Source: Gammaproteobacteria bacterium (lineage in GTDB: Bacteria; Pseudomonadota; Gammaproteobacteria; Xanthomonadales; Xanthomonadaceae). From it: a stretch of DNA of 64,000 nt. The notes under the pieces were generated by a model, which saw nothing but the letters and a program-made list of their open reading frames with translations, was not told where the DNA came from and searched no databases. Position 1 is the stretch's first letter, and every line of letters starts with the position of its first letter. The stretch lies in NCBI GenBank assembly GCA_025352045.1, contig JANXUD010000028.1:10206-74205 (forward strand), read 5' to 3'. Of the stretch, positions 16,331 through 63,954 are shown one piece after another. Both the position numbers and the translations under genes were made by a program.

Positions 16331-16855
16331 TCAGAAGATCCGCGCCACGGCCTCGGCCAGGACCACGCCGATGCCCGCTGCCGCCAACACATCGCTGGGG
16401 TAATGCATGCCCAGCACGACCCGCGACGCGGCCACGCTCACCGCGAATGGCACCAGCAGCCATCCCAGCCACGGAAACCACAGGCAGGCGGAGAGCGCGA
16501 ATCCGACCGCATGCAGGGTATGTCCCGATGGAAAACTGAATTCGTCCAGCGGCGCCACCCAGGCGCGGATGCGACCGTCCGCGGCGAACGGACGCGGCCG
16601 GCGCGCCCAACCCTTGAGTCGCCCGTAGAGCAGCGTCGCGATGCCGCCAACCAAGGCCATGTGCGCGGCGGCCAGCAGGCCGCGCGCACCACCCGACACC
16701 GCCAGCACGCCCATCAGCGCGTACCAGAACGCACCGTCGCCAAGTCTGCTGACGGCGCGGAAGTACCCGCGCACGATGCGATGCGCGCCGCATCGATTGG
16801 CGCGCAGGCACCAGGCTTCCTCGCGGGCGACCAGCCGGCCCGCCTGCCAGTTCAC
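16331..16855 (-). CDS. PAP2-family phosphatase
   Basis: The three PAP2 motifs are present: K...RPRP, SFPSGHT, and SRVVLGMHYPSD. Confidence 0.85.
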   Translation of the reverse strand: MNWQAGRLVAREEAWCLRANRCGAHRIVRGYFRAVSRLGDGAFWYALMGVLAVSGGARGLLAAAHMALVGGIATLLYGRLKGWARRPRPFAADGRIRAWVAPLDEFSFPSGHTLHAVGFALSACLWFPWLGWLLVPFAVSVAASRVVLGMHYPSDVLAAAGIGVVLAEAVARIF

Positions 16856-51129: not shown

Positions 51130-52328
51130 TCGTAGTGCAACGCCTCGGTCGGGCTCATCCGGCTGGCCCGCCATGCAGGATAGAGAGCGCAGAGCACGGA
51201 TACCAGCGACATCACCGTCAGCGACACCAGCGCGGCGGCCAGGAACAGCGGCCAGCTCAGGTTTTCCCCGAACACGCCGGTGATCGGCAACTGCACCAGC
51301 AGGACCAGGCCCACCGCGATCGCCAGGCCGGTCAGCAGGAGCTGCTCGACGATGATCTGCCGGTAGATGCCGCCCGCGGTGGCCCCGATCGCCCGGCGCA
51401 GGCCAATCTCCGGGATGCGCCGGGTGGTGGACTGCCAGAGCACGCCGAACAGACCGAAGCCGACCATCAGCAGGAGGAAGGCGGCGATCACCCCCAGGAT
51501 CACCAACGGGATGACGGAGTCGTGCAGCATCGTGGTGCGCATGTCCAGCACCGGCGAGATCCGGTAGGACCAGTCGTTGCGAACCAGCTTCATGCGCTCG
51601 CTCAGGCGCGACTCGAACGCCCGGCTGGTGCCCGGCCTGACCTTCAACACGACCGTCTCCGCGCCGCGCATGCTCGACAGCGGCGAGAACCGCTTGATCG
51701 TGAAGTTGACCGGCGGCATGAACTCGCCGTGGTTGCGGAAGGCCTCGACGACGCCGGTGACGCGCATCATCGTGCGGTCCTTGCCGCTTGGCGGGCCGTC
51801 GCTGATCAGCTGGCCCACGGCCGAGCGACCGGGGAACAATGCGTCGGCCAGGCGCCGGTTGATGACCACGGGCTGCTCGGCCGCGCCCTCGTCGGAGGCA
51901 TTGAACCAGCGGCCCTCGGCAAGTTGCATGCCCAGTGTCTCGAAATACGTATCGCTGGCCTGGACGAAGTCGCTCTCGACCGACGCACCGCCCTCGGGCC
52001 GGTACATGTCGCCGCGCCAGGTCGAATTGTCGTAGAGCGGGAACGACGCAAAGCTGACCTTCTCCACTTCCGGCAGGTCCAGCAAGCTGCGGCGCAGCTG
52101 GTCGTAGAACTGCGGATCGTTCTTCGGGCCACCCTGGCTGGTCTGTTGCATCTGCACCGACCACAGCCCGGCGGGATCGAAGCCGATCGGCAGGTGGTAG
52201 AGCTGGTAGTAGCGCGCACCAGCGGCCGACACGGCGAACACCACCACGAACGCGAGCAGGATTTCCAGGCTGAGCATCAGGTTGCGCGACTTGCGCCGCC
52301 AGATCGGCTTGAGCAGGTGACGGAACAT
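51126..52328 (-). CDS. ABC transporter permease, FtsX/MacB type
   Basis: [30 protein letters not shown]..., RRIPEIGLRRAIGAT, and a C-terminal PTEALHYE. ATGA overlaps at both ends. Confidence 0.88.
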
Positions 52329-53569
52329 CAGGCAGCTCCCTTGAGTGCTTGGACAGGATGCAGTCGGGACATCTTCCAGGCCGGGATCACGCCCGACAGC
52401 AGGCCGAAAGTCACCGCGATGAGGAAGGCGTAGAACAGCACCGGCCAGGCGATGTCCACCCGCAGGTAGGGAATCAGCCCGGAATGCTCCAGCCACACCA
52501 GCGCGCCCTTGGCGAACACCAGGCCCAACACGCCGCCAAACAGGCAGAGCAGGATGTTTTCCACCACGAACTGCACCACCAAGGTCCGGCTCGAGGCGCC
52601 GAAGGCCTTGCGCACGCCGATTTCCGAGCTGCGCTCGAGGATCCGGCCGGTGTTGAGGTTGACCAGGTTCAGGGCCGGCAGCAGCATGAAGAACAGCATC
52701 AGCAGCAAGATCACCGCCAGCATGGTGCCGGCACCGGAATCGGGCTCGCGCGCATTGTTGAAGATGCCGCGTGCGAACACGTCCATCTTGGTGTCGGCCC
52801 ACAAATACGCCTTGTTGAACTCCTTCGGGTCCTTGAACCGGACCCGCGGGGCGATGCCCGCGACCTCGGCCTGCATGCGCGGCACGTCGGCCGGGCTGGC
52901 GCCGAGCAGGAGCGCGACGAAGTCGCCCGATTCCTCGCTGCGATAGGCGGTCGAGGGCTCGGTGGTGATCGGCGCCCAGATGTCGGCATAGGCATTGAGC
53001 TGCATCTCGTCCCGAACCACGCCAATCACCTGGAACTGCTGGCCGCCGACATTCAGGGGCTGGCCGACCGCCTTCGCGCCGGGGAACAACTTGCGCGCAG
53101 TGGACTGGTTGAGTACCGCGACGAAGCGTCCCTGCGCGACATCCTCGGCGCCCGGCAACCGGCCATCGAGCACCGTGAAGTCGAGGATCTTCCAGTACTC
53201 GGCATCCGTGCGCCGCAGCATCACTTCAGTGACGCGGTCGGCCTGGTACACCGACACGGTGCGCGGCCCGGTGGTGGCCGCGACCATTTGCGGTGTCTTC
53301 ATCGTCTTGAAGTAGTTTTCGATGATCCGGTAGCCCAGCGGGCCGATCCGGGTCGAGTTGCCGTCCGGGCCTTCGGACACCATGGTGTTGACCTGCACGA
53401 AGCGGTCGCTCTTGCCTTCCACGCCGCTGGGGAAGAACGCCTCCTGCAGCAGGGCAGCCACGACCAGCAACACGCCCAGCGTCAGCGTGATGCACAACAG
53501 GTTGATGGCAGTGAACAGCTTGCGCCGGGTGTAGACCTTCCAGGCCGTCAACAGGTAGTTCTTGAACAT
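52328..53569 (-). CDS. ABC transporter permease, FtsX/MacB type
   Basis: [25 protein letters not shown]..., [15 protein letters not shown], and a C-terminal PVQALKGA. Confidence 0.88.
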
Positions 53570-53578
53570 GACGACTCC

Positions 53579-54241
<663 letters not shown>

Positions 54242-54278
54242 GTCGCGGTTCCTTGGCTGGAATGTGTTCGGATGCGGG

Positions 54279-55526
54279 TCAGTGGGTGATGCGGATGTGG
54301 TCGAGGCGCTTGAACTGGCTGGTGTCGGACACGATCAGGTGGTCGCCAACGTGCGCGCCGGAGAGGATTTCGACGTCCTTGCCATCGCCCAGGCCCATGT
54401 CCACGGGCACCTTGCGCGCCTCGTCGCCATTGACGACGAAGGCCTCCTGCGGACCGCGCCCGTTGAAGGCGGGGCCGGCATCCACCACCAGCGCATCGGG
54501 CTTGCTGTCGGTGACGATGTTCACGTCCACCCGCAGCTTGTTGCGCAGCAGGGGATGGCCCGGCTGGTCCAGGCTGACACGCAGCTTCACGGTGCCGTCC
54601 ACGATCTCGGGCAGCACCGTCTGCACGCGGCCGGTGAGAACCTGGCCGCTGTAACCGACGCGCACGACCTGGCCCGGGGACAGGTAGCGCGCGTAGAAGT
54701 CGGACACGGTCGCTTCGATGCGATAGCTGTGCAGCCTGGACACCTTGGCCACCAGCTGGCCCGCGGTGACGCTGGCGCCCTCGTCGGCCAGTACCCAGCT
54801 GAGCATGCCGTCGAAGGGTGCGCGCACGCGGGTCTGCGCCAGCAGTTCCTGCTGCTGCGCAAGCTGCTTTTCATAGATGGATTTCTGCAGGCGCGCGCCT
54901 TCCATGTCCGTGGCCGTGGCCTGGCGCGTGTCGGCGACCGACTCGCGCTTCTGCCGCAGCTCGATCTCGCTGCGCTTGACGGCCAGACGTGCGGCGTCCA
55001 GGTCGGAGGCAGAGAAGGCGCCGGTCTTGCCCAGGCGCTCGTAGCGGCCCAGCTTCACCTGCGCGCTTTCCAGGTCCAGCTGCATCAGCTCGATGTCGCT
55101 GGCCACCTGCTTGAGCTTCTGGTCCATCGCCAGTTGCAGCGACTCGACGCGGTTCTCCTGCTGCGCCACCTGCTCGCGCAGGTTGTCCACCGCCACGCGC
55201 AGCGCGGTGTCGTCCAGCTCCAGCAGCAGCTCGCCGGCCTTCACTTCCTGCCCCGGCCGCGCGACGACGCGTGCCACCCGGCTCTGGATCGGGCTCGACA
55301 CCTGGGTCTCGCTGATCGGGATCACCACGCCCGCGGCGTTGATGGTGTTGGCGATGCTGCCGCGGTGCACTTCCGACACGCGCAGCTGGTCAAGCGCCAC
55401 GCTGGGGCTGACCAACCGGTTCACGCCCCATGCCGCGGTCGCCAGCGCCGCGAAGGCGCCGGCAAGGGTTAGCCCTCGCGCATGGCGGCGACGAGCGAGG
55501 ACGCGGGTGTCGATCGGCTGGTCCAC
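54279..55526 (-). CDS. HlyD-family periplasmic adaptor
   Basis: Lipoyl/coiled-coil/barrel layout (SPIQSRVARVVARPGQEVKAGELLLELD ... VRAPFDGML). The longest ORF starts at ATG 55586, but the sigma-54 promoter lies inside that extension. The in-frame GTG at 55526, with AGGAA upstream, is proposed instead. Confidence 0.85.
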   Translation of the reverse strand: MDQPIDTRVLARRRHARGLTLAGAFAALATAAWGVNRLVSPSVALDQLRVSEVHRGSIANTINAAGVVIPISETQVSSPIQSRVARVVARPGQEVKAGELLLELDDTALRVAVDNLREQVAQQENRVESLQLAMDQKLKQVASDIELMQLDLESAQVKLGRYERLGKTGAFSASDLDAARLAVKRSEIELRQKRESVADTRQATATDMEGARLQKSIYEKQLAQQQELLAQTRVRAPFDGMLSWVLADEGASVTAGQLVAKVSRLHSYRIEATVSDFYARYLSPGQVVRVGYSGQVLTGRVQTVLPEIVDGTVKLRVSLDQPGHPLLRNKLRVDVNIVTDSKPDALVVDAGPAFNGRGPQEAFVVNGDEARKVPVDMGLGDGKDVEILSGAHVGDHLIVSDTSQFKRLDHIRITH

Positions 55527-55563
55527 GGGCTGCAGGCATTCCTGGATGACTGCCAGGCATGTT

Positions 55564-55578
55564 GCAAGCGCCGTGCCA
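55564..55578 (-). promoter_or_regulatory. sigma-54 (-24/-12) promoter
   Basis: The minus strand reads TGGCACGGCGCTTGCA, an exact match to TGGCACG-N4-TTGCA with canonical spacing. It lies upstream of an operon that encodes a sigma-54 activator. Confidence 0.75.
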
Positions 55579-55708
55579 CACTTCAATCCCCGTCGATTGG
55601 CTTACCGATCAGTCACTTGCCCGGTTGTCGCGGCGAGCCGGAAACGACTGCATTGCACGCGGCCGAACAGCAGTGTCCGGAATCGAACACTGCGTTCGCC
55701 TGACGCCA

Positions 55709-59391: not shown

Positions 59392-59739
59392 ATGGTGGAG
59401 CTCAAGGAAACACCGCTGTCCAAGCTGGAACTGGAGATTCGCCGCGGCGCCCTGGTGCTGGCGGTCCTGACCCAGCTCAAGGAGGCGCAATACGGCTACT
59501 CCCTGCGCCAGGCCCTGGCCCAGCGCGGGCTGCCAATCGAGGAAGGGACCCTCTATCCCCTGCTTCGGCGGCTGGAAAGCCAAGCGCTGCTGGCATCGGA
59601 GTGGCGGATCGAGGACGGCCCGCCGCGCCGCTACTACCAACTGAACGACGCTGGCGAGGCACTGCTCGCCGACCTGACGGCCTCCTGGAACGCGCTCGCC
59701 GCGACCATGGCCAAACTGCTTGAAGGGAGCAAGACATGA
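59392..59739 (+). CDS. PadR-family transcriptional regulator
   Basis: GYSLRQAL...EGTLYPLLRRLESQALLASEW...RRYYQLNDAG is the PadR winged helix. Confidence 0.9.
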   Translation: MVELKETPLSKLELEIRRGALVLAVLTQLKEAQYGYSLRQALAQRGLPIEEGTLYPLLRRLESQALLASEWRIEDGPPRRYYQLNDAGEALLADLTASWNALAATMAKLLEGSKT

Positions 59740-60647
59740 ACCGCAATCCAGTCATCGAAGCGTATGTGGTCGAGGTGATGCGCCGTCTGCCGGGCAAGGA
59801 TCGCAATGGCATCGGTTACGAGCTGCGCGGCCTGCTGACCGACATGCTCGCCGAGCGCGCCGAGTCGTCCGGCCATGGCGCCGACGACGCGATGGTGCTG
59901 GCCCTGCTGCGCGAATTCGGCACGCCCGCCGAGGTCGCCCAGCGCTATCGGCCGCCGGGCATGCTGGTCATCCCCGCCGACCAGACACGCGTGTTCGTGC
60001 CCTGGGCCATCGCCGGTGTCGCCCTGCAGTGGGTGCTGACCCTGCCGCGCGTGTTCGAAGGCCAACCGCTGTCCACCTGGTGGCTGACCTGGGGCCTCGG
60101 TGCGTTCTGGTGGCCCGGCTTCCTGGTGATGACCTCGCTGGCCGTGGCCTGGCTGCGGCAGAAGGGCGTGATCAAGGTCGGCGACTGGTCAACGCGCACC
60201 TACGATCCCGAACGCGTCAACCGGGGCGTGCTGGCCTTCGGGCTGCTCTGGTTCGGCTGCGGCGTGGCGTTGGTGTCCAGCCTGCCCTGGATCGCAAGCC
60301 GGATGCCGGATCCGATGTCACACATTCTCGCCGTGGATCCGCAGTTCCTGCGGACGCGCACCTGGCCCGTCGTGCTGCTGTGGCTGGGCCAGTTCACCTT
60401 GCTGGTCACCGTGCTGGTGAAGGGCCGCTGGTCCACGCTGACGCGGCACATCGAGATGGTCATCAGCATCGGCTTCGCCGCAGTGCTGGCCTGGTGGATC
60501 AGCGCCGGGTCGATCCTGCAGGCCAAGGCCAGCAACGATGGCGCGAGGCTGGCGCTCAGCTTCGTGATCCTGGTCATTGCCATCGACGTGGGCAAGAAGT
60601 GGTACCGGGAGCGCACGCGGATCTGTACCCCCAACATCGCCGGCTAG
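59736..60647 (+). CDS. PadR-associated polytopic membrane protein
   Basis: ATGA overlap with padR. The N-terminal soluble helix bundle (IEAYVVEVMRRLP...LREFGTPAEVAQRY) resembles the anti-regulator/sensor partners often paired with PadR. It is followed by several TM helices. Confidence 0.7.
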   Translation: MNRNPVIEAYVVEVMRRLPGKDRNGIGYELRGLLTDMLAERAESSGHGADDAMVLALLREFGTPAEVAQRYRPPGMLVIPADQTRVFVPWAIAGVALQWVLTLPRVFEGQPLSTWWLTWGLGAFWWPGFLVMTSLAVAWLRQKGVIKVGDWSTRTYDPERVNRGVLAFGLLWFGCGVALVSSLPWIASRMPDPMSHILAVDPQFLRTRTWPVVLLWLGQFTLLVTVLVKGRWSTLTRHIEMVISIGFAAVLAWWISAGSILQAKASNDGARLALSFVILVIAIDVGKKWYRERTRICTPNIAG

Positions 60648-60806: not shown

Positions 60807-61358
60807 ATGGATAGCTCGCCCCAGACCGACACCGCCGCGCACTACTCGCTGCGCGCCCGGCGTTTTCATTGGTGGTCGTTCGGGCTGGTCGCGCTGGCCT
60901 ACCTGCTGATCAACCTGGTGGACCTGTTCGAGCGCGGCACGCCGCTGCGGCGTGCCGTGCTGCAGGGCCACTTCCTGGCCGGACTGGTGGTGCTGGCGCT
61001 GGTCCTGCCGCGGCTGCTCAACCGCCTGCGCAACGCACCGCCGCCGATCGTCCCGCCGATCGCCTCCTGGGAAGCGCGGCTGTCGGGACTCACGCATTTC
61101 CTGCTCTATGCCTGCCTGTTGCTGCAGCCCATCCTCGGCCTGCTGACGGTGTGGCTCGGCGGCCGCGGGATTGGCATCCCGTTCACCGCGATCCAGCTGC
61201 CCTCGCCGCTCACCGAGAACCACGATCTTCACGAGCAGCTCGGCAGCATCCATGGCTGGGTCGGCACGGTGTTCTACTACGTGATCGGCCTGCACATCGC
61301 CGGCGCGCTGTGGCACCACGCCGTGCGCCACGACAACACCTTGCGGCGCATCACCTGA
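60807..61358 (+). CDS. cytochrome b561 family protein
   Basis: Four TM segments with conserved His (RFHWWSF, LQGHFLAG, GLTHFLLY, IHGWVG...HIAGALWHH). Confidence 0.85.
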   Translation: MDSSPQTDTAAHYSLRARRFHWWSFGLVALAYLLINLVDLFERGTPLRRAVLQGHFLAGLVVLALVLPRLLNRLRNAPPPIVPPIASWEARLSGLTHFLLYACLLLQPILGLLTVWLGGRGIGIPFTAIQLPSPLTENHDLHEQLGSIHGWVGTVFYYVIGLHIAGALWHHAVRHDNTLRRIT

Positions 61359-61391: not shown

Positions 61392-62030
61392 TCACCAGTG
61401 CTTGGGCAGTTCCTTGACCAGCACCATGCGGCGCTCGTCGTCCCGATCCATGAAGCCGCCACGCGCCAAGTCCCGGAGGATGTGGTTGACCATCTCACGG
61501 GTGGCGCCGACGCGATCGGCGATTTCCTGCTGGGTGATCGCGCCCGGGATCACGCGGACCCCGTCCTCGTCCAGCGCGAGGCGGTTGAGCACGTCCACGG
61601 TGCGCTCGTACACGCCGCTGAACGCGAGGCTGCGCGTCTGCCCGGTCGCGTGGCGGACCCTGGCGATGAGTTTCAGCACCAGGCATTCGGCGAATTCCGG
61701 ATAGGCTTTCATGAACTCGCGGAATTCGGTCGGGCCAACCACCACGCACTGCGCCGCGTCGACCGCCTTGACCGAGGCCGAGCGCGCCTCGCCATCGAGG
61801 AACATCTCGCCGAAGAATTCACCCGGCTGCAGGATGTTGTAGATCAGCTCCCGCCCGCGCTCGTCGCGCGTGAACACCTTCACCTGGCCAGAGACCAGGA
61901 TATAGAGCGCGTCCGACAACTCGCCTTCGGTGATCAGCACGTCGCCGCGCGCGAACGTGCGCAAGTCGCCACGCTCGGCCAGGCTTCGCATCAGGGCATC
62001 GGACAAATGCGAGTGGTCTTCCAACGGCAT
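61392..62030 (-). CDS. Crp/Fnr-family transcriptional regulator
   Basis: cNMP-binding beta-roll (GEFFGEMFL...RSASVKA) and a C-terminal HTH (TQQEIADRVGATREMVNHILRDL). There is no N-terminal Cys cluster, so it is not FNR-type. Confidence 0.9.
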   Translation of the reverse strand: MPLEDHSHLSDALMRSLAERGDLRTFARGDVLITEGELSDALYILVSGQVKVFTRDERGRELIYNILQPGEFFGEMFLDGEARSASVKAVDAAQCVVVGPTEFREFMKAYPEFAECLVLKLIARVRHATGQTRSLAFSGVYERTVDVLNRLALDEDGVRVIPGAITQQEIADRVGATREMVNHILRDLARGGFMDRDDERRMVLVKELPKHW

Positions 62031-62163
62031 GTCGCATCCCGGGTCGTGCGGAGAGACGCCCGACGATACGCGTTTGTGCGACACCCATGACGCTCTGTGA
62101 AATATTTACATGCCCAGTGTTACCCCACCCCAGGCAAAAGTGGGGCCCGCGTCACGCCACGCA

Positions 62164-63819
62164 TCAGCCGCCGATGCGCTGCAGGATCGGGCGCAGGTGC
62201 ATCACCGGCTGGCAGGCGGAATGGGCCGCGTTGGGCGCGGTCCCGACCGGGCAGGCCATGCACGCGCCCGGACGCTGCGGATTGGGCACGGTGCTGCCGG
62301 TGCAACCGGGCGCGCAACTGCCGTCCACGTTCGTGCGTTCCGGCGGACAGGTCGCCGCGGGCGCCATGCTGCGCAAGGCGCCTGCACCGCCGATCGCGTG
62401 CAGTCCGGGACCCACGGGCTGGCAGAAGCCACCGACTTCCTCGGTGCCCGGCGCGCAGACACAGGCCATCGCGTCGTTCGCCGGATGCACCGTGCCCGCG
62501 GGACAGCTCACGCCGGGGAACCCCATGATCTTGCAAAAGTCGTCGCCGCCGTTGGAGTGCCCGCCCTGCGTGCAGGGCTCGCAGACGCCGCCCTGTTTGC
62601 GCTGGGTGTCGGGTGGGCACACCATGCATTCGCTGGCCCCAGGCAAATGTCCCAGGCCTTCGGGACAGGCATCGGCGACACAGACAGGCGAGCTGTTGGA
62701 GGTATGCGCTCCGCTGGGACAGGCTTGGCAACTGTTCTCGACCTGTTCGGTGTCCGGGGCGCACGCGGTGCAATCCTTGCCGTCCCAGATGCGGCCCAGG
62801 GGGCATCGGCTTCCGCAGGTGTTGCCGTCCTGGCTCACGGCCTGCCAGCTGGCGCAGCAGATCGCGGCCAGGCCGTTCCGGCCGTTCCAGTGCTCGTCGG
62901 CCTTGCAAGGATTGATCGGCTCCACGTGCGTCATCACGCAGGCACTGCCGTCGCGATTCGGCTCCCAGGTCTCGAAACCCGCCAGGCCTGTCTTGTTCAT
63001 GCAGGCACTGCAGTTGCCGTACTTGTCCCTGGCCGTGTTCGGCGGACAGGTAAGGCAGGTGAAAGTCGGTCCGTGGAAAAAGCCCTGGCCCAGGTCCACC
63101 CACTTGCCGTCTGCGTACGGACGCGTCGGTGCCGGGCAATTGCAGGTGCGAACGCGCAGGCCGGGCTGCAGGGCGCTGCCATCCCAGCCGTGCGTCCAGC
63201 CGGGGAATGGAACGCCCGTCGCCGGGCACATCGCCACGTCGTAGGCCTCCTGCTGCTGGCCGCCATTGCCGACACCCGCGCGCGGATCGTGGTCGCTGCC
63301 CGCCATGCCCCACAGCGTGCTGAGGCCGAGCAGTTCGCCGGCCTTCCTGGTGCCCGCGGCAACGTTGGCAACGGGATCGACCGCCTTGGCGCAGGCGACG
63401 ACATCCTCGACCAGGCCCTGGATCTTCTGCGCGATGCCGCTCTCGGCGACCGCACAGCCACAATCGAGATAGGCGCTGACCACGCTGGCGTCGGCCACGG
63501 CGAGCAACTGCTGCGCGGCCTGCGACGACGGCTTGCCCAGGATCGACGAACACTGCCCGGTCTTGAGCACACCGGTCGTGGTGAGCGTGGTCAGCGTGCC
63601 GGCAACCGCCTCGAAGCCGGGATCCTCGAGGTCGGCGAGGCATTCGCCGTGATCCTTGACGAACTGGTAGGCCAGGCCGATGTCGTTGGCGCTGAACTGG
63701 TTGACCAGCGTGGTGCAGGCGCCGATGCCGGCCTGCGCCTGGCCGATGCAGCCTGCAAAGACCAGCAGCACGGCCAGACCACGGCGCAGCCATGCCTTCG
63801 AAGCCGGTGTCGTGGTCAT
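62164..63819 (-). CDS. secreted cysteine-rich repeat protein
   Basis: Signal peptide MTTTPASKAWLRRGLAVLLVFAGCIGQAQA (ATG 63819). The N-terminal region of about 200 aa has few Cys. The C-terminal region of about 330 aa is packed with CxxC(P/A)xGT-type units. Confidence 0.75.
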   Translation of the reverse strand: MTTTPASKAWLRRGLAVLLVFAGCIGQAQAGIGACTTLVNQFSANDIGLAYQFVKDHGECLADLEDPGFEAVAGTLTTLTTTGVLKTGQCSSILGKPSSQAAQQLLAVADASVVSAYLDCGCAVAESGIAQKIQGLVEDVVACAKAVDPVANVAAGTRKAGELLGLSTLWGMAGSDHDPRAGVGNGGQQQEAYDVAMCPATGVPFPGWTHGWDGSALQPGLRVRTCNCPAPTRPYADGKWVDLGQGFFHGPTFTCLTCPPNTARDKYGNCSACMNKTGLAGFETWEPNRDGSACVMTHVEPINPCKADEHWNGRNGLAAICCASWQAVSQDGNTCGSRCPLGRIWDGKDCTACAPDTEQVENSCQACPSGAHTSNSSPVCVADACPEGLGHLPGASECMVCPPDTQRKQGGVCEPCTQGGHSNGGDDFCKIMGFPGVSCPAGTVHPANDAMACVCAPGTEEVGGFCQPVGPGLHAIGGAGALRSMAPAATCPPERTNVDGSCAPGCTGSTVPNPQRPGACMACPVGTAPNAAHSACQPVMHLRPILQRIGG

Positions 63820-63954
63820 GGCGCTGTCCCCGTGGCGCAGGCGGATCGGGATGACCGGATGCGCGAGCAAATCCTACGCCCAATTCCGCGCGGCCGCGGG
63901 ATGGCGGATGCGGCCCGGCTTGCTAAGCTGGCGTCCTGACCGGGAGTCCGCTGC

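What the first reader, a model, noticed from the sequence alone, without database searches (positions are those of the whole stretch)
62164..63819. Large secreted protein with roughly 40 cysteines in eukaryote-style CxxC(P/A)xGT repeats
After a Sec signal and an N-terminal region of about 200 aa with few Cys, the protein becomes a chain of short Cys-rich units. Examples are CLTCPPNT, CTACAPDT, CQACPSGA, CMVCPPDT, CEPCTQGG, SCPAGT, CVCAPGT and CMACPVGT. I counted roughly 40 Cys in total by hand.

This spacing recalls furin-like, ephrin-receptor-like or GCC2/GCC3 repeats and Giardia VSP-type CxxC repeats. It also recalls the Cys-rich repeats reported from myxobacteria. Repeats like these are uncommon in gammaproteobacteria.

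The gene lies directly upstream of, and on the same strand as, a Crp-family regulator. Possible roles are adhesion, binding of prey or host surfaces, or metal binding. None of these can be decided from sequence.
Basis: partly seen in the sequence, partly recalled or inferred. Interest (0 to 1): 0.7.

Follow-up and report, generated by a model that had tools for sequence, protein, structure and literature searches.

The report
Rare secreted disulfide-rich head-and-stalk protein
This is a real gene for an exported bacterial protein: a previously undescribed helical domain followed by a chain of disulfide-bonded repeats like those in animal TNF and ephrin receptors; the family is very rare and its function is untested, so the interest is modest.

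Summary
Window 62164-63819 (-) encodes a 551-aa protein with a Sec-type signal, 41 Cys (40 in the mature part) and eight C[PAT]x[GDNE][TAGS] motifs against 0.9 expected. The frame is correct: GC3 is 0.85, and 176 of 292 differences from an 82%-identical homologue fall at codon position 3.

The family is very rare and unannotated: 10 proteins in 5.8 billion, 3 loci in 185,579 species genomes, 7 metagenome loci.

Architecture:
- signal peptide;
- all-alpha domain with six invariant Cys and no sequence or fold relatives;
- highly conserved Gly-rich signature (STLWG...AGVGNGG);
- variable-length chain of about 14 Cys hairpin units;
- short basic tail.

The repeats are divergent TNFR/Ephrin_rec_like (formerly GCC2_GCC3) units. 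The family profile reaches Pfam-verified Ephrin_rec_like proteins (E down to 1e-12). An HMM built only from such repeats scores the window protein 23 bits, against at most 9 for shuffles. Pfam's own models give it no hit.

Cys columns are 98% conserved, and the mature Cys count is even in 24 of 26 relatives. This points to full disulfide bonding, not metal binding. There is no conserved operon; the Crp neighbour is seen only in close relatives.

Most likely it is an exported, disulfide-stapled head-on-stalk binding protein. Function is untested.

The parts
62164..63819 (-). CDS of the 551-aa Cys-rich exported protein (stop TGA at 62164-62166)
   Evidence: ORF list and translation. GC3 is 0.85. 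Third-position excess against homologues. Full-length homologues at 36-82% identity.
63827..63831 (-). Shine-Dalgarno-like GGGGA, 7 nt before the ATG
   Evidence: Read directly from the sequence. By inspection only.
63730..63819 (-). Signal peptide, aa 1-30: basic n-region, hydrophobic core, AQA|G cleavage motif. It also contains a permissive lipobox, VFAG|C24.
   Evidence: The AxA motif is conserved (A28 invariant, A30 in at least 90% of 29 family sequences). The signal-peptide Cys is present in 5 of 8 close homologues with intact N-termini. No signal-peptide predictor was available.
63331..63729 (-). N-terminal all-alpha domain, aa 31-163, with six conserved Cys (C35, C60, C90, C120, C122, C143, including a CxC motif)
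   Evidence: AF2 model of aa 31-197: pLDDT 75-89 over the first ~120 residues of the model (aa 31 to about 150), pTM 0.63, 8 helices. Cys are invariant or nearly so across the superfamily. No Pfam, NCBIfam or PDB sequence hit. No Foldseek neighbour in PDB or BFVD, best E 2.5-3.1.
63229..63330 (-). Family signature segment, aa 164-197 (GLSTLWGMAGSDHDPRAGVGNGG...). It is the most conserved stretch yet is predicted to be unstructured.
   Evidence: 100% identical in the 82% homologue and 74-82% in the ~60% homologues. Invariant columns G165-G171 and A181-G187. pLDDT < 50 in both models.
62212..63228 (-). Cys-rich repeat region, aa 198-536: 34 Cys in about 14 short CPxGT-x(6-12)-C hairpin units of divergent Ephrin_rec_like/TNFR type
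   Evidence: Motif enrichment. Family profile hits Pfam-verified Ephrin_rec_like/TNFR_ELAPOR1/NCD3G proteins. Reverse HMM gives 8 domains over aa 254-537 at 23.4 bits, against a shuffle maximum of 9.1. The AF2 model shows short beta-hairpins. Weak Foldseek hits to mastigoneme, the CaSR Cys-rich domain and TNFR family members. Cys columns are 98% conserved, and losses occur as whole-unit deletions.
62167..62211 (-). Cys-free basic C-terminal tail, aa 537-551 (QPVMHLRPILQRIGG), with a conserved Pro
   Evidence: P544 is invariant in A1 and present in at least 90% of A2. Pro/Arg-rich tails occur across the superfamily. Segment pI is 12. There is no hydrophobic helix and no NCBIfam sorting-tag hit.
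62096..62109 (-). Conserved AT-rich 14-mer GTAAATATTTCACA between the stop codon and the crp-like gene. Probably a promoter or operator of the downstream gene rather than part of the protein gene.
   Evidence: Identical in L004, downstream of the 82% homologue, while the surrounding intergenic DNA is diverged and carries a 56-bp indel. Unique in the window and in the fetched loci.
61392..62084 (-). Crp-family regulator downstream on the same strand. The real start is probably ATG 62030, giving 212 aa.
   Evidence: Pfam cNMP_binding and HTH_Crp_2. The GTG-start product is not in the protein collection. A 212-aa Crp gene also follows homologue P0006.

Best explanation
The gene encodes a Sec-exported, fully oxidised extracytoplasmic protein of about 53 kDa built as a head on a stalk.

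Step 1, shown: a signal peptide takes it across the inner membrane.

Step 2, inferred from counts and conservation: all 40 mature cysteines form about 20 disulfides. Three of these staple a previously undescribed all-alpha N-terminal domain. In that domain a CxC motif lies on a central helix in the model; the two Cys could each link to a different neighbouring helix, but no pairing was computed.

Step 3, shown by profile comparison in both directions: the C-terminal two thirds is a chain of about 14 small disulfide-bonded hairpin units of the TNFR/Ephrin_rec_like class. Its length varies between relatives by gain and loss of whole units.

Step 4, inferred by analogy: this chain acts as a stiff, protease-resistant rod. 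It presents the conserved head and the highly conserved Gly-rich signature to a ligand on a surface or another cell. The protein would therefore be a binding, recognition or adhesion protein rather than an enzyme, because apart from one Ala in the signal peptide only the cysteines are invariant across the superfamily.

How it is retained is open: N-terminal lipidation at C24, the basic C-terminal tail, or free release. It is an accessory gene scattered among soil and freshwater Proteobacteria. It is not part of a conserved operon.
For: Real gene and correct frame.

Export signal: the AxA motif is conserved in 29 family sequences.

Disulfide scaffold:
- The mature Cys count is even in 24 of 26 full-length relatives.
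- 238 of 242 aligned Cys cells are Cys, against 58% identity at other positions. Cys are lost only in whole-unit gaps.

Repeat class:
- The family profile against 1.84 billion representatives hits multi-repeat proteins at E 1e-12 to 1e-4. Of ten such hits scanned, nine match Pfam Ephrin_rec_like and all ten match TNFR_ELAPOR1_6th. The Cys register is kept in the alignments.
- An HMM built only from 148 such repeats scores the window protein 23.4 bits over eight stretches, aa 254-537. The 955 of 1000 shuffles that returned a score gave mean -7.2, sd 7.9, maximum 9.1.
- Five of 10 family members give sub-threshold hits to TNFR_ELAPOR1_6th.
- The AF2 model shows beta-hairpins. Foldseek hits are all of the TNFR / CaSR Cys-rich domain / mastigoneme type.

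Head domain: 8-helix model with pTM 0.63. It is shared by about 25 cluster representatives that carry different C-terminal parts.

Variable stalk length and a swapped distal module in P0008 and P0009.

No invariant polar residue across the superfamily.

Functional analogy: in Myxococcus TraA, a signal peptide, an N-terminal recognition domain, Cys-rich repeats proposed as a rigid stalk, and a C-terminal tag are proposed to form a cell-surface receptor (PMC3325183).
Against: - No experiment bears on localisation, disulfides or ligand.
- The window protein itself gets no Pfam hit. HMMER bias terms for these Cys-rich matches are large.
- The full-length model is poor (pLDDT 54.7), and the structural matches are weak (best E 2e-4, TM < 0.3).
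- There is no recognised surface-sorting tag or secretion-system neighbour, so it may simply stay in the periplasm.
- If C24 is lipidated, the head would sit next to the membrane rather than at the tip.
- The best-conserved segment (aa 164-197) is unexplained by this model.
Confidence: 0.45

Rival explanations
1. It is a soluble periplasmic resident, for example a stress or envelope scaffold or a binding protein. It is exported by Sec, oxidised by the Dsb system and never reaches the cell surface.
For: Only a Sec-type signal is visible. There is no sorting tag, autotransporter domain or neighbouring secretion genes in any of about 10 loci. Architecture and disulfide content are equally compatible with the periplasm.
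Against: Long TNFR/Ephrin-type Cys-rich rods are, from general knowledge of these families, extracellular ectodomain modules. Variation in stalk length is easier to explain for a spacer that projects from a surface. Type II secretion needs no linear signal, so the absence of a tag is weak evidence.
Confidence: 0.25
2. It is a secreted toxin or antagonistic effector. The rather hydrophobic helical head would be a membrane-active or lipid-binding module, and the Cys-rich chain a receptor-binding or stabilising part.
For: The head has positive GRAVY (+0.37) and is all-alpha. The gene is accessory and patchily distributed. One copy sits next to a 1485-aa Rhs/YD-repeat ORF, and a near-identical copy sits inside the prs-rplY-pth-ychF housekeeping cluster, which looks like an insertion.
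Against: There is no conserved adjacent immunity-like gene or secretion system. No match to toxin families in Pfam, NCBIfam or PADLOC. In polymorphic toxins the variable toxic module is usually C-terminal, whereas here the N-terminus is the conserved part (from general knowledge of those systems).
Confidence: 0.15
3. It is a periplasmic metal-binding or thiol-redox buffer protein that uses free cysteines, in the manner of a metallothionein.
For: High Cys content (7.4%) and several CxxC motifs. A CxC motif in the head could in principle be redox-active.
Against: The mature Cys count is even in 24 of 26 relatives. The Cys spacing matches disulfide-bonded TNFR/Ephrin units. Cys are lost only in whole-unit deletions. 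There are no His/Cys clusters typical of metal sites and no metal-resistance neighbours.
Confidence: 0.05
4. It is an artefact: a wrong-frame ORF in GC-rich DNA, or a eukaryotic contaminant or very recent eukaryote-to-bacterium transfer.
For: Three long overlapping ORFs exist in other frames. The repeat class is mainly eukaryotic (PMC6993872).
Against: GC3 and substitution patterns fit the named frame. GC content is 0.67-0.70, like the flanks. The gene has a bacterial signal peptide and bacterial neighbours on an 85.7-kb contig. Homologues lie in Gammaproteobacteria and Caulobacterales MAGs. The head domain was found only in proteins with bacterial-type signal peptides.
Confidence: 0.02

Closest known systems
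Ephrin_rec_like repeats (Pfam PF07699, formerly GCC2_GCC3) and the related TNFR_ELAPOR1_6th (PF23091), NCD3G (PF07562) and TNFR_c6 Cys-rich modules
   Same: Tandem short units with the CxxCPxG[TS] motif and regular Cys spacing. Profile similarity runs in both directions. The model shows beta-hairpin secondary structure, and the Foldseek hits are of TNFR/CaSR type. The setting is extracytoplasmic.
   Different: The window protein does not reach any Pfam threshold and gives no hit even at E <= 10. Units are shorter and less regular, and several lack the first CxxC. They are joined to a head domain that no Ephrin_rec_like hit examined here carries. The host is a proteobacterium, whereas the domain is regarded as mainly eukaryotic, with rare bacterial cases read as HGT (PMC6993872).
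Myxococcus xanthus TraA (kin-recognition and outer-membrane-exchange receptor)
   Same: The same design logic: type I signal peptide, N-terminal globular domain, Cys-rich tandem repeats proposed to act as a rigid stalk, and a short C-terminal element rich in basic residues (PMC3325183).
   Different: The TraA head is a PA14 lectin-like beta domain, while this head is a novel all-alpha domain. The TraA repeats are TIGR04201, which do not match here. TraA ends in a MYXO-CTERM tag with a transmembrane helix, and this protein has none. No TraB-like partner is adjacent.
Unannotated bacterial proteins sharing the six-Cys helical head (P0011-P0016, P0020, P0024, P0026, P0032, P0035, P0067, P0092 and others)
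   Same: Signal peptide with AxA, the same C-x24-C-x29-C-x29-CxC-x20-C pattern in a helical domain, then Cys-rich repeats and a Pro/Arg-rich tail.
   Different: Lengths range from 377 to 1048 aa with 20-84 Cys. Many lack the STLWG...GVGNGG signature. A few (P0034, P0087) carry C-terminal parts that are much less Cys-rich. None has a name or a Pfam domain on the head.
Plant nsLTP / 2S-albumin type disulfide-stapled helical bundles (recalled from general knowledge, not tested as homologues)
   Same: A small all-alpha domain held together by several disulfides, including a CxC motif whose two Cys pair with different helices.
   Different: Different Cys pattern (no CC pair, six rather than eight Cys) and a larger size. 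Foldseek against PDB found no such match. This is a resemblance only.

Membership tests
Pfam Ephrin_rec_like (PF07699, ex GCC2_GCC3) | hmmscan score at or above the gathering threshold (23.1 bits) | tested here: not met
   No Pfam family for the window protein at E <= 1 or E <= 10.
Pfam Ephrin_rec_like (PF07699, ex GCC2_GCC3) | Tandem CxxCPxG[TS]-type units with regular Cys spacing | tested here: met
   Eight motif matches against 0.9 expected. About 14 units over aa 228-536.
Pfam Ephrin_rec_like (PF07699, ex GCC2_GCC3) | Profile-level similarity to verified members, in both directions | tested here: met
   The family profile hits proteins carrying 3-22 Pfam Ephrin_rec_like stretches at E 1e-12 to 1e-4. 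An HMM from 148 verified repeats gives 23.4 bits and 8 domains on the window protein, against a shuffle maximum of 9.1.
Pfam Ephrin_rec_like (PF07699, ex GCC2_GCC3) | Disulfide-bonded beta-hairpin (TNFR-like) fold | tested here: inconclusive
   The model is low-confidence (pLDDT 54.7) but shows hairpins. Foldseek hits to TNFRs, the CaSR Cys-rich domain and mastigoneme are weak, with best E 2e-4.
Pfam TNFR_ELAPOR1_6th (PF23091) | hmmscan match | tested here: not met
   Five of 10 close family members match, best E 1.2e-5. More distant relatives reach 16.7-20.1 bits against a 33.2-bit cutoff. The window protein does not match.
Myxococcus Cys-rich repeats (TIGR02232 / Pfam DUF4215; TIGR04201 of TraA) | Match to the repeat HMMs | tested here: not met
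   No NCBIfam or Pfam hit at E <= 1. It was not checked that NCBIfam release 20.0 still holds these TIGRFAM models. DUF4215 appears only in an unrelated part of one distant hit, P0025.
Furin-like Cys-rich region / Giardia VSP | Match to Pfam Furin-like or VSP models | tested here: not met
   No hit for any of the 10 family members at E <= 10.
TraA-like surface receptor | PA14 head domain and a MYXO-CTERM (or other CTERM) sorting tag | tested here: not met
   The head is all-alpha with no Pfam hit. The C-terminus has no hydrophobic helix and no NCBIfam tag hit. Only the head-plus-Cys-rich-stalk design is shared.
Sec/SPase I secreted protein | n-h-c signal peptide with an AxA cleavage motif | tested here: met
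   By inspection, K8/R12/R13, a hydrophobic core and AQA|G31. A28 is invariant and A30 is present in at least 90% of 29 sequences. No dedicated predictor was available.
Bacterial lipoprotein (SPase II) | Lipobox [LVI..][AST..][GAS]C at the end of the h-region, conserved in relatives | tested here: inconclusive
   VFAG|C24 fits the permissive PROSITE pattern as recalled from memory. The equivalent Cys is present in P0002-P0004 and P0006 but absent in P0005, P0008 and P0009.
Metallothionein-like / thiol metal-binding protein | Free, unpaired cysteines used as ligands | tested here: not met
   Indirect only. The mature Cys count is even in 24 of 26 relatives, and Cys are lost only in whole-unit deletions. 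Chemistry was not tested.
Operon or regulon with the Crp-family neighbour | Conserved adjacency across the family | tested here: not met
   A Crp gene lies downstream in the window and at P0006, and is inferred at L004 from a conserved 14-mer. It is absent at P0003, P0004, P0005, P0010, L002, L003 and L014. One distant locus has a convergent cNMP_binding-DUF1003 gene.

The most novel reading that the evidence does not exclude
The six-Cys helical head plus the highly conserved STLWG...AGVGNGG signature is a new extracellular recognition or ligand module with a new fold. Soil and freshwater Proteobacteria display it on a eukaryote-type TNFR/Ephrin-like stalk. The gene moves horizontally and is wired to cyclic-nucleotide signalling: Crp or cNMP-binding neighbours occur at 3 of about 10 loci, and a conserved operator-like 14-mer lies next to the gene. 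This would make it a bacterial counterpart of receptor-ectodomain cell-cell or cell-prey recognition.
Probability: 0.1. Interest if true: 0.6.

Novelty: new variant of a known kind. Interest (0 to 1): 0.35.

Why it matters
If the reading is right, this extends TNFR/Ephrin-type disulfide-rich stalks into free-living Proteobacteria. That module class is considered essentially eukaryotic. It also defines a new, very rare bacterial domain: a three-disulfide helical head with a highly conserved Gly-rich signature and no sequence or fold relatives. It would merit a new family entry. It could also inform how bacteria build rigid extracellular spacers, and whether such modules were exchanged between bacteria and eukaryotes. 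Without a phenotype, a ligand or a cultivated host, the practical impact is currently small.

Tried and rejected
- Direct scans of the window protein against Pfam, NCBIfam, PADLOC and PHROGs found nothing.
- PDB sequence searches with the protein, the family profile (A1) and the head-domain profile (A3) found nothing, even at E <= 10 for the protein and the head profile.
- The word-indexed search with the head-domain alignment returned only 4 proteins and missed known members, so it was uninformative.
- The full-length AF2 model was poor. Foldseek of the better head-domain model against PDB and BFVD gave no neighbour.
- The Rfam scan, and the promoter and terminator scans around the gene, found nothing.
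- There is no paralogue in the window.
- The source organism could not be named. Cluster look-ups returned no names, only that the window comes from an 85.7-kb NCBI contig.
- PADLOC Pycsar hits of the Crp neighbour cover only the shared cNMP-binding domain, and the protein has a Crp-type HTH, so they were rejected as shared-domain matches.
- The alternative-frame ORFs were rejected.
- An enzymatic role for the head was rejected as unlikely. The conserved His of the DHGEC motif is replaced in several superfamily members, and apart from one Ala in the signal peptide only Cys are invariant.
- The ARAGORN tRNA-Val call elsewhere in the window was checked and is probably false.
Full report

Yes. 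The - strand ORF from ATG 63819 to TGA 62166-62164 encodes 551 aa. A GGGGA Shine-Dalgarno-like element lies 7 nt upstream.

The product has 41 Cys: one in the signal peptide, six in residues 31-197 and 34 in residues 198-536.

The motif C[PAT]x[GDNE][TAGS] occurs eight times in the Cys-rich region, against 0.89 +/- 0.92 (maximum 6) in 5000 shuffles of that region. CxxC occurs seven times against 2.8 +/- 1.4.

The frame is the coding one. GC at codon positions is 0.64/0.58/0.85. Differences from the 82%-identical homologue in L004 fall 69/47/176 on positions 1/2/3, with 133 synonymous against 101 non-synonymous codon changes. More distant homologues show the same trend. The three long overlapping ORFs in other frames are the usual by-product of 68% GC. 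Base composition of the gene matches its flanks.

**2. How rare is it, and who has it?**

- The word-indexed search of 5.8 billion proteins found ten relatives including the query. None is named and none has a Pfam domain.
- One genome per species for 185,579 species gave three loci: a Gammaproteobacteria MAG (53% identity) and two Caulobacterales MAGs (31-32%).
- 241 million metagenome records gave seven loci.
- The window protein is a singleton 90% cluster from an 85.7-kb NCBI contig. I could not name the organism.
- An exhaustive HMMER search with the family profile against 1.84 billion cluster representatives gave 93 hits at E <= 1e-3, of two kinds.

**3. Anatomy**

*(a) Signal peptide, residues 1-30.* It has a basic n-region, a hydrophobic core and AQA|G. 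The AxA motif is conserved through 29 family sequences. A permissive lipobox (VFAG|C24) is also present. The equivalent Cys is found in some close homologues but not others, so SPase I is favoured but lipidation is not excluded.

*(b) Helical head, residues 31-163.* This all-alpha domain carries six Cys (C35, C60, C90, C120, C122, C143). Three are invariant and three are present in at least 90% of the whole superfamily. Apart from one Ala in the signal peptide (A28), no other residue is invariant. With a 23-sequence alignment, AF2 gives eight helices, pLDDT 75-89 over the first 120 residues and pTM 0.63. This domain has:
- no Pfam or NCBIfam hit;
- no PDB sequence relative, even by profile at E <= 10;
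- no Foldseek neighbour in PDB or BFVD, best E 2.5-3.1.

About 25 cluster representatives share this head. All have signal peptides and nearly all have Cys-rich C-terminal parts, at lengths of 377-1048 aa.

*(c) Signature segment, residues 164-197 (GLSTLWGMAGSDHDPRAGVGNGG...).* This is the most conserved stretch of the protein. It is 100% identical in the 82% homologue and 74-82% in the ~60% homologues, higher than the head or the repeats. Yet it is predicted unstructured in both models. This is unexplained.

*(d) Repeat region, residues 198-536.* It holds 34 Cys in about 14 short units of the form CPxGT-x(6-12)-C, often preceded by CxxC. Relatives differ by deletion or insertion of whole units, which always removes Cys in even numbers. 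Two relatives (P0008, P0009) have a different, Cys-poorer distal module.

*(e) Tail, residues 537-551.* This is a Cys-free basic tail with a conserved Pro. Pro/Arg-rich tails recur through the superfamily. None has a hydrophobic helix or matches a known CTERM sorting tag.

**4. What are the repeats?**

Pfam's own models give the window protein no hit, even at E <= 10. Five of its ten relatives reach sub-threshold matches to TNFR_ELAPOR1_6th.

The family profile matches large multi-repeat proteins at E 1e-12 to 1e-4. Of ten such hits scanned with Pfam, nine match Ephrin_rec_like (PF07699, the former GCC2_GCC3), all ten match TNFR_ELAPOR1_6th, and nine match NCD3G. The alignments keep the Cys register over several consecutive units.

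As a reverse test I built an HMM only from Pfam-delineated Ephrin_rec_like repeats of nine such proteins, 148 repeats after two rounds. It scores the window protein 23.4 bits with eight stretches over residues 254-537, and other family members up to 42 bits. Of 1000 composition-preserving shuffles of the Cys-rich region, the 955 that returned a score gave mean -7.2, sd 7.9 and maximum 9.1.

The low-confidence full-length model (pLDDT 54.7) shows short beta-hairpins. Its weak Foldseek hits are all of one type: Chlamydomonas mastigoneme, the Cys-rich domain of the calcium-sensing receptor, and 4-1BB, DcR3, OPG, RANK and OX40.

So the repeats work like, and are probably distantly homologous to, TNFR/Ephrin_rec_like units. 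Formal Pfam membership is not met. Furin-like, VSP and myxococcal repeat models do not match. Some of the hit proteins look bacterial, with bacterial-type signal peptides and TIG or DUF4215 domains. The class is therefore not exclusively eukaryotic, although the literature treats it as eukaryotic with rare bacterial cases ascribed to HGT (PMC6993872).

**5. Are the cysteines structural?**

Yes. In the seven relatives that share the architecture, 238 of 242 aligned Cys cells are Cys. Two of the four exceptions are the signal-peptide position. Identity at other positions is 58%.

After removing the signal peptide at the conserved AxA site, 24 of 26 full-length family members have an even number of Cys. 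By my own arithmetic, the binomial tail for that many or more even counts is about 5e-6.

This is what a fully disulfide-bonded protein predicts (20 disulfides here). It argues against a free-thiol metal binder.

**6. Genomic context**

The window shows the following downstream of the gene:
- the crp-like gene;
- cytochrome b561;
- a PadR/HAAS pair;
- DUF1428, pirin and DUF1456 genes;
- an SPFH protein;
- a MacAB-type efflux system.

Nothing here links to secretion or disulfide formation. Across about ten loci with readable flanks, the neighbours differ:

| Locus | Neighbours |
|---|---|
| L004 (P0002, 82% homologue) | GST (downstream not on the contig) |
| P0004 | PALP, acyltransferase |
| P0005 | M28 peptidase, Ser/Thr kinase |
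| P0003 | LysR, methyltransferase |
| P0010 | DUF4386, PAS histidine kinase |
| L002 | SMC-like ATPase, sigma-54 regulator |
| L003 | YceI, KARI |
| L014 | prs, rplY-pth-ychF |
| L013 | Rhs |

A Crp-family gene follows the gene only in the window and at P0006. It probably also does at L004: a 14-nt AT-rich element (GTAAATATTTCACA, window 62096-62109) is identical there in otherwise diverged intergenic DNA with a 56-bp indel. One distant locus (L013) has a convergent cNMP_binding-DUF1003 gene. Three cNMP-binding neighbours in about ten loci is a lead, not a finding.

Two near-identical homologues sit in different places. One is inside the prs-rplY-pth-ychF housekeeping cluster and one is beside an Rhs ORF. 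This fits a mobile accessory gene.

**7. How it most likely works**

- *Shown:* the protein has a Sec-type signal, a conserved disulfide scaffold, a helical head, a chain of TNFR/Ephrin-like hairpin units of variable length, and no conserved partner genes.
- *Inferred:* after Sec export and Dsb oxidation it forms a rigid rod that carries the conserved head and signature segment. It acts by binding something, such as a surface, a polymer or another cell, rather than by catalysis, since no polar residue is invariant.

The nearest functional analogue in bacteria is TraA of Myxococcus. There, a signal peptide, an N-terminal recognition domain, Cys-rich repeats proposed as a rigid stalk and a C-terminal tag are proposed to make a cell-surface receptor (PMC3325183). 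TraA's defining features (PA14 head, TIGR04201 repeats, MYXO-CTERM tag) are all absent here, so this is an analogy and not membership.

Confidence is about 0.8 for the architecture and disulfide statement. It is about 0.3-0.4 for the head-on-stalk binding function, and 0.45 for the combined statement.

Rivals are a purely periplasmic role (0.25), a secreted toxin or effector with a membrane-active head (0.15), metal or redox buffering (0.05) and an artefact or contaminant (0.02).

**8. Novelty and verdict**

The repeat class is known. Its fusion to a head domain with no sequence or fold relatives, plus a highly conserved signature segment, in a very rare proteobacterial family, is a new variant of a known kind.

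However, there is no functional handle, no conserved system around it, and no open question that it makes testable. Interest is 0.35.

Noticed in passing
window 62096-62109 (- strand); L004 6633-6646: The 14-nt AT-rich element GTAAATATTTCACA lies between the Cys-rich gene and the crp-like gene. It is identical downstream of the 82% homologue, although the rest of the spacer is diverged and has a 56-bp indel. Its half-sites resemble a CRP box (TGTAA / TCACA) but with N5 spacing. It may be the promoter or an auto-operator of the crp-like gene.
   Followed up: partly
window 61392-62084 (- strand): The Crp-family gene probably starts at ATG 62030 (212 aa) rather than at the GTG at 62084. The GTG-start product is absent from the protein collection, and the Crp gene next to homologue P0006 is also 212 aa. 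Its PADLOC Pycsar hits cover only the cNMP-binding domain.
   Followed up: partly
window 61392-62084; P0006 locus; L013 7315-8169: A cNMP-binding-domain protein lies within about 1 kb downstream of the family gene at 3 of about 10 loci: Crp-type in two, and a convergent cNMP_binding-DUF1003 membrane protein in one distant homologue. This could be chance or a weak link to cyclic-nucleotide signalling.
   Followed up: partly
L014 1002-2501 and L013 4869-6368: Two nearly identical homologues sit in different contexts. One lies between prs and rplY-pth-ychF, so it looks like an insertion into a housekeeping cluster. The other lies next to a 1485-aa Rhs/YD-repeat ORF with lower GC3 (0.70). This suggests the gene is mobile.
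   Followed up: partly
window 63229-63330 (- strand), aa 164-197: The best-conserved stretch of the family (STLWG...DHDPRAGVGNGG) has pLDDT < 50 in both models and matches no known motif. It could be a docking or processing site.
   Followed up: partly
P0008, P0009 (also P0059, P0065, P0089): A subfamily keeps the head, the signature and the first Cys-rich units, but replaces the distal repeats with a different, Cys-poorer module ending in a Gly run.
   Followed up: no
window 16567-16661 (- strand): ARAGORN calls a 95-nt tRNA-Val(tac) here. Rfam finds no tRNA at the gathering threshold or at E <= 1, so it is probably a false positive or a degenerate tRNA.
   Followed up: yes
window 52328-55586 (- strand); 59392-60647 (+ strand); 60807-61358 (+ strand): Ordinary neighbours: a MacAB-type efflux trio (HlyD, ABC ATPase, FtsX permease), a PadR regulator with a HAAS-domain membrane protein, and a cytochrome b561. 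None has an evident link to the Cys-rich gene.
   Followed up: no
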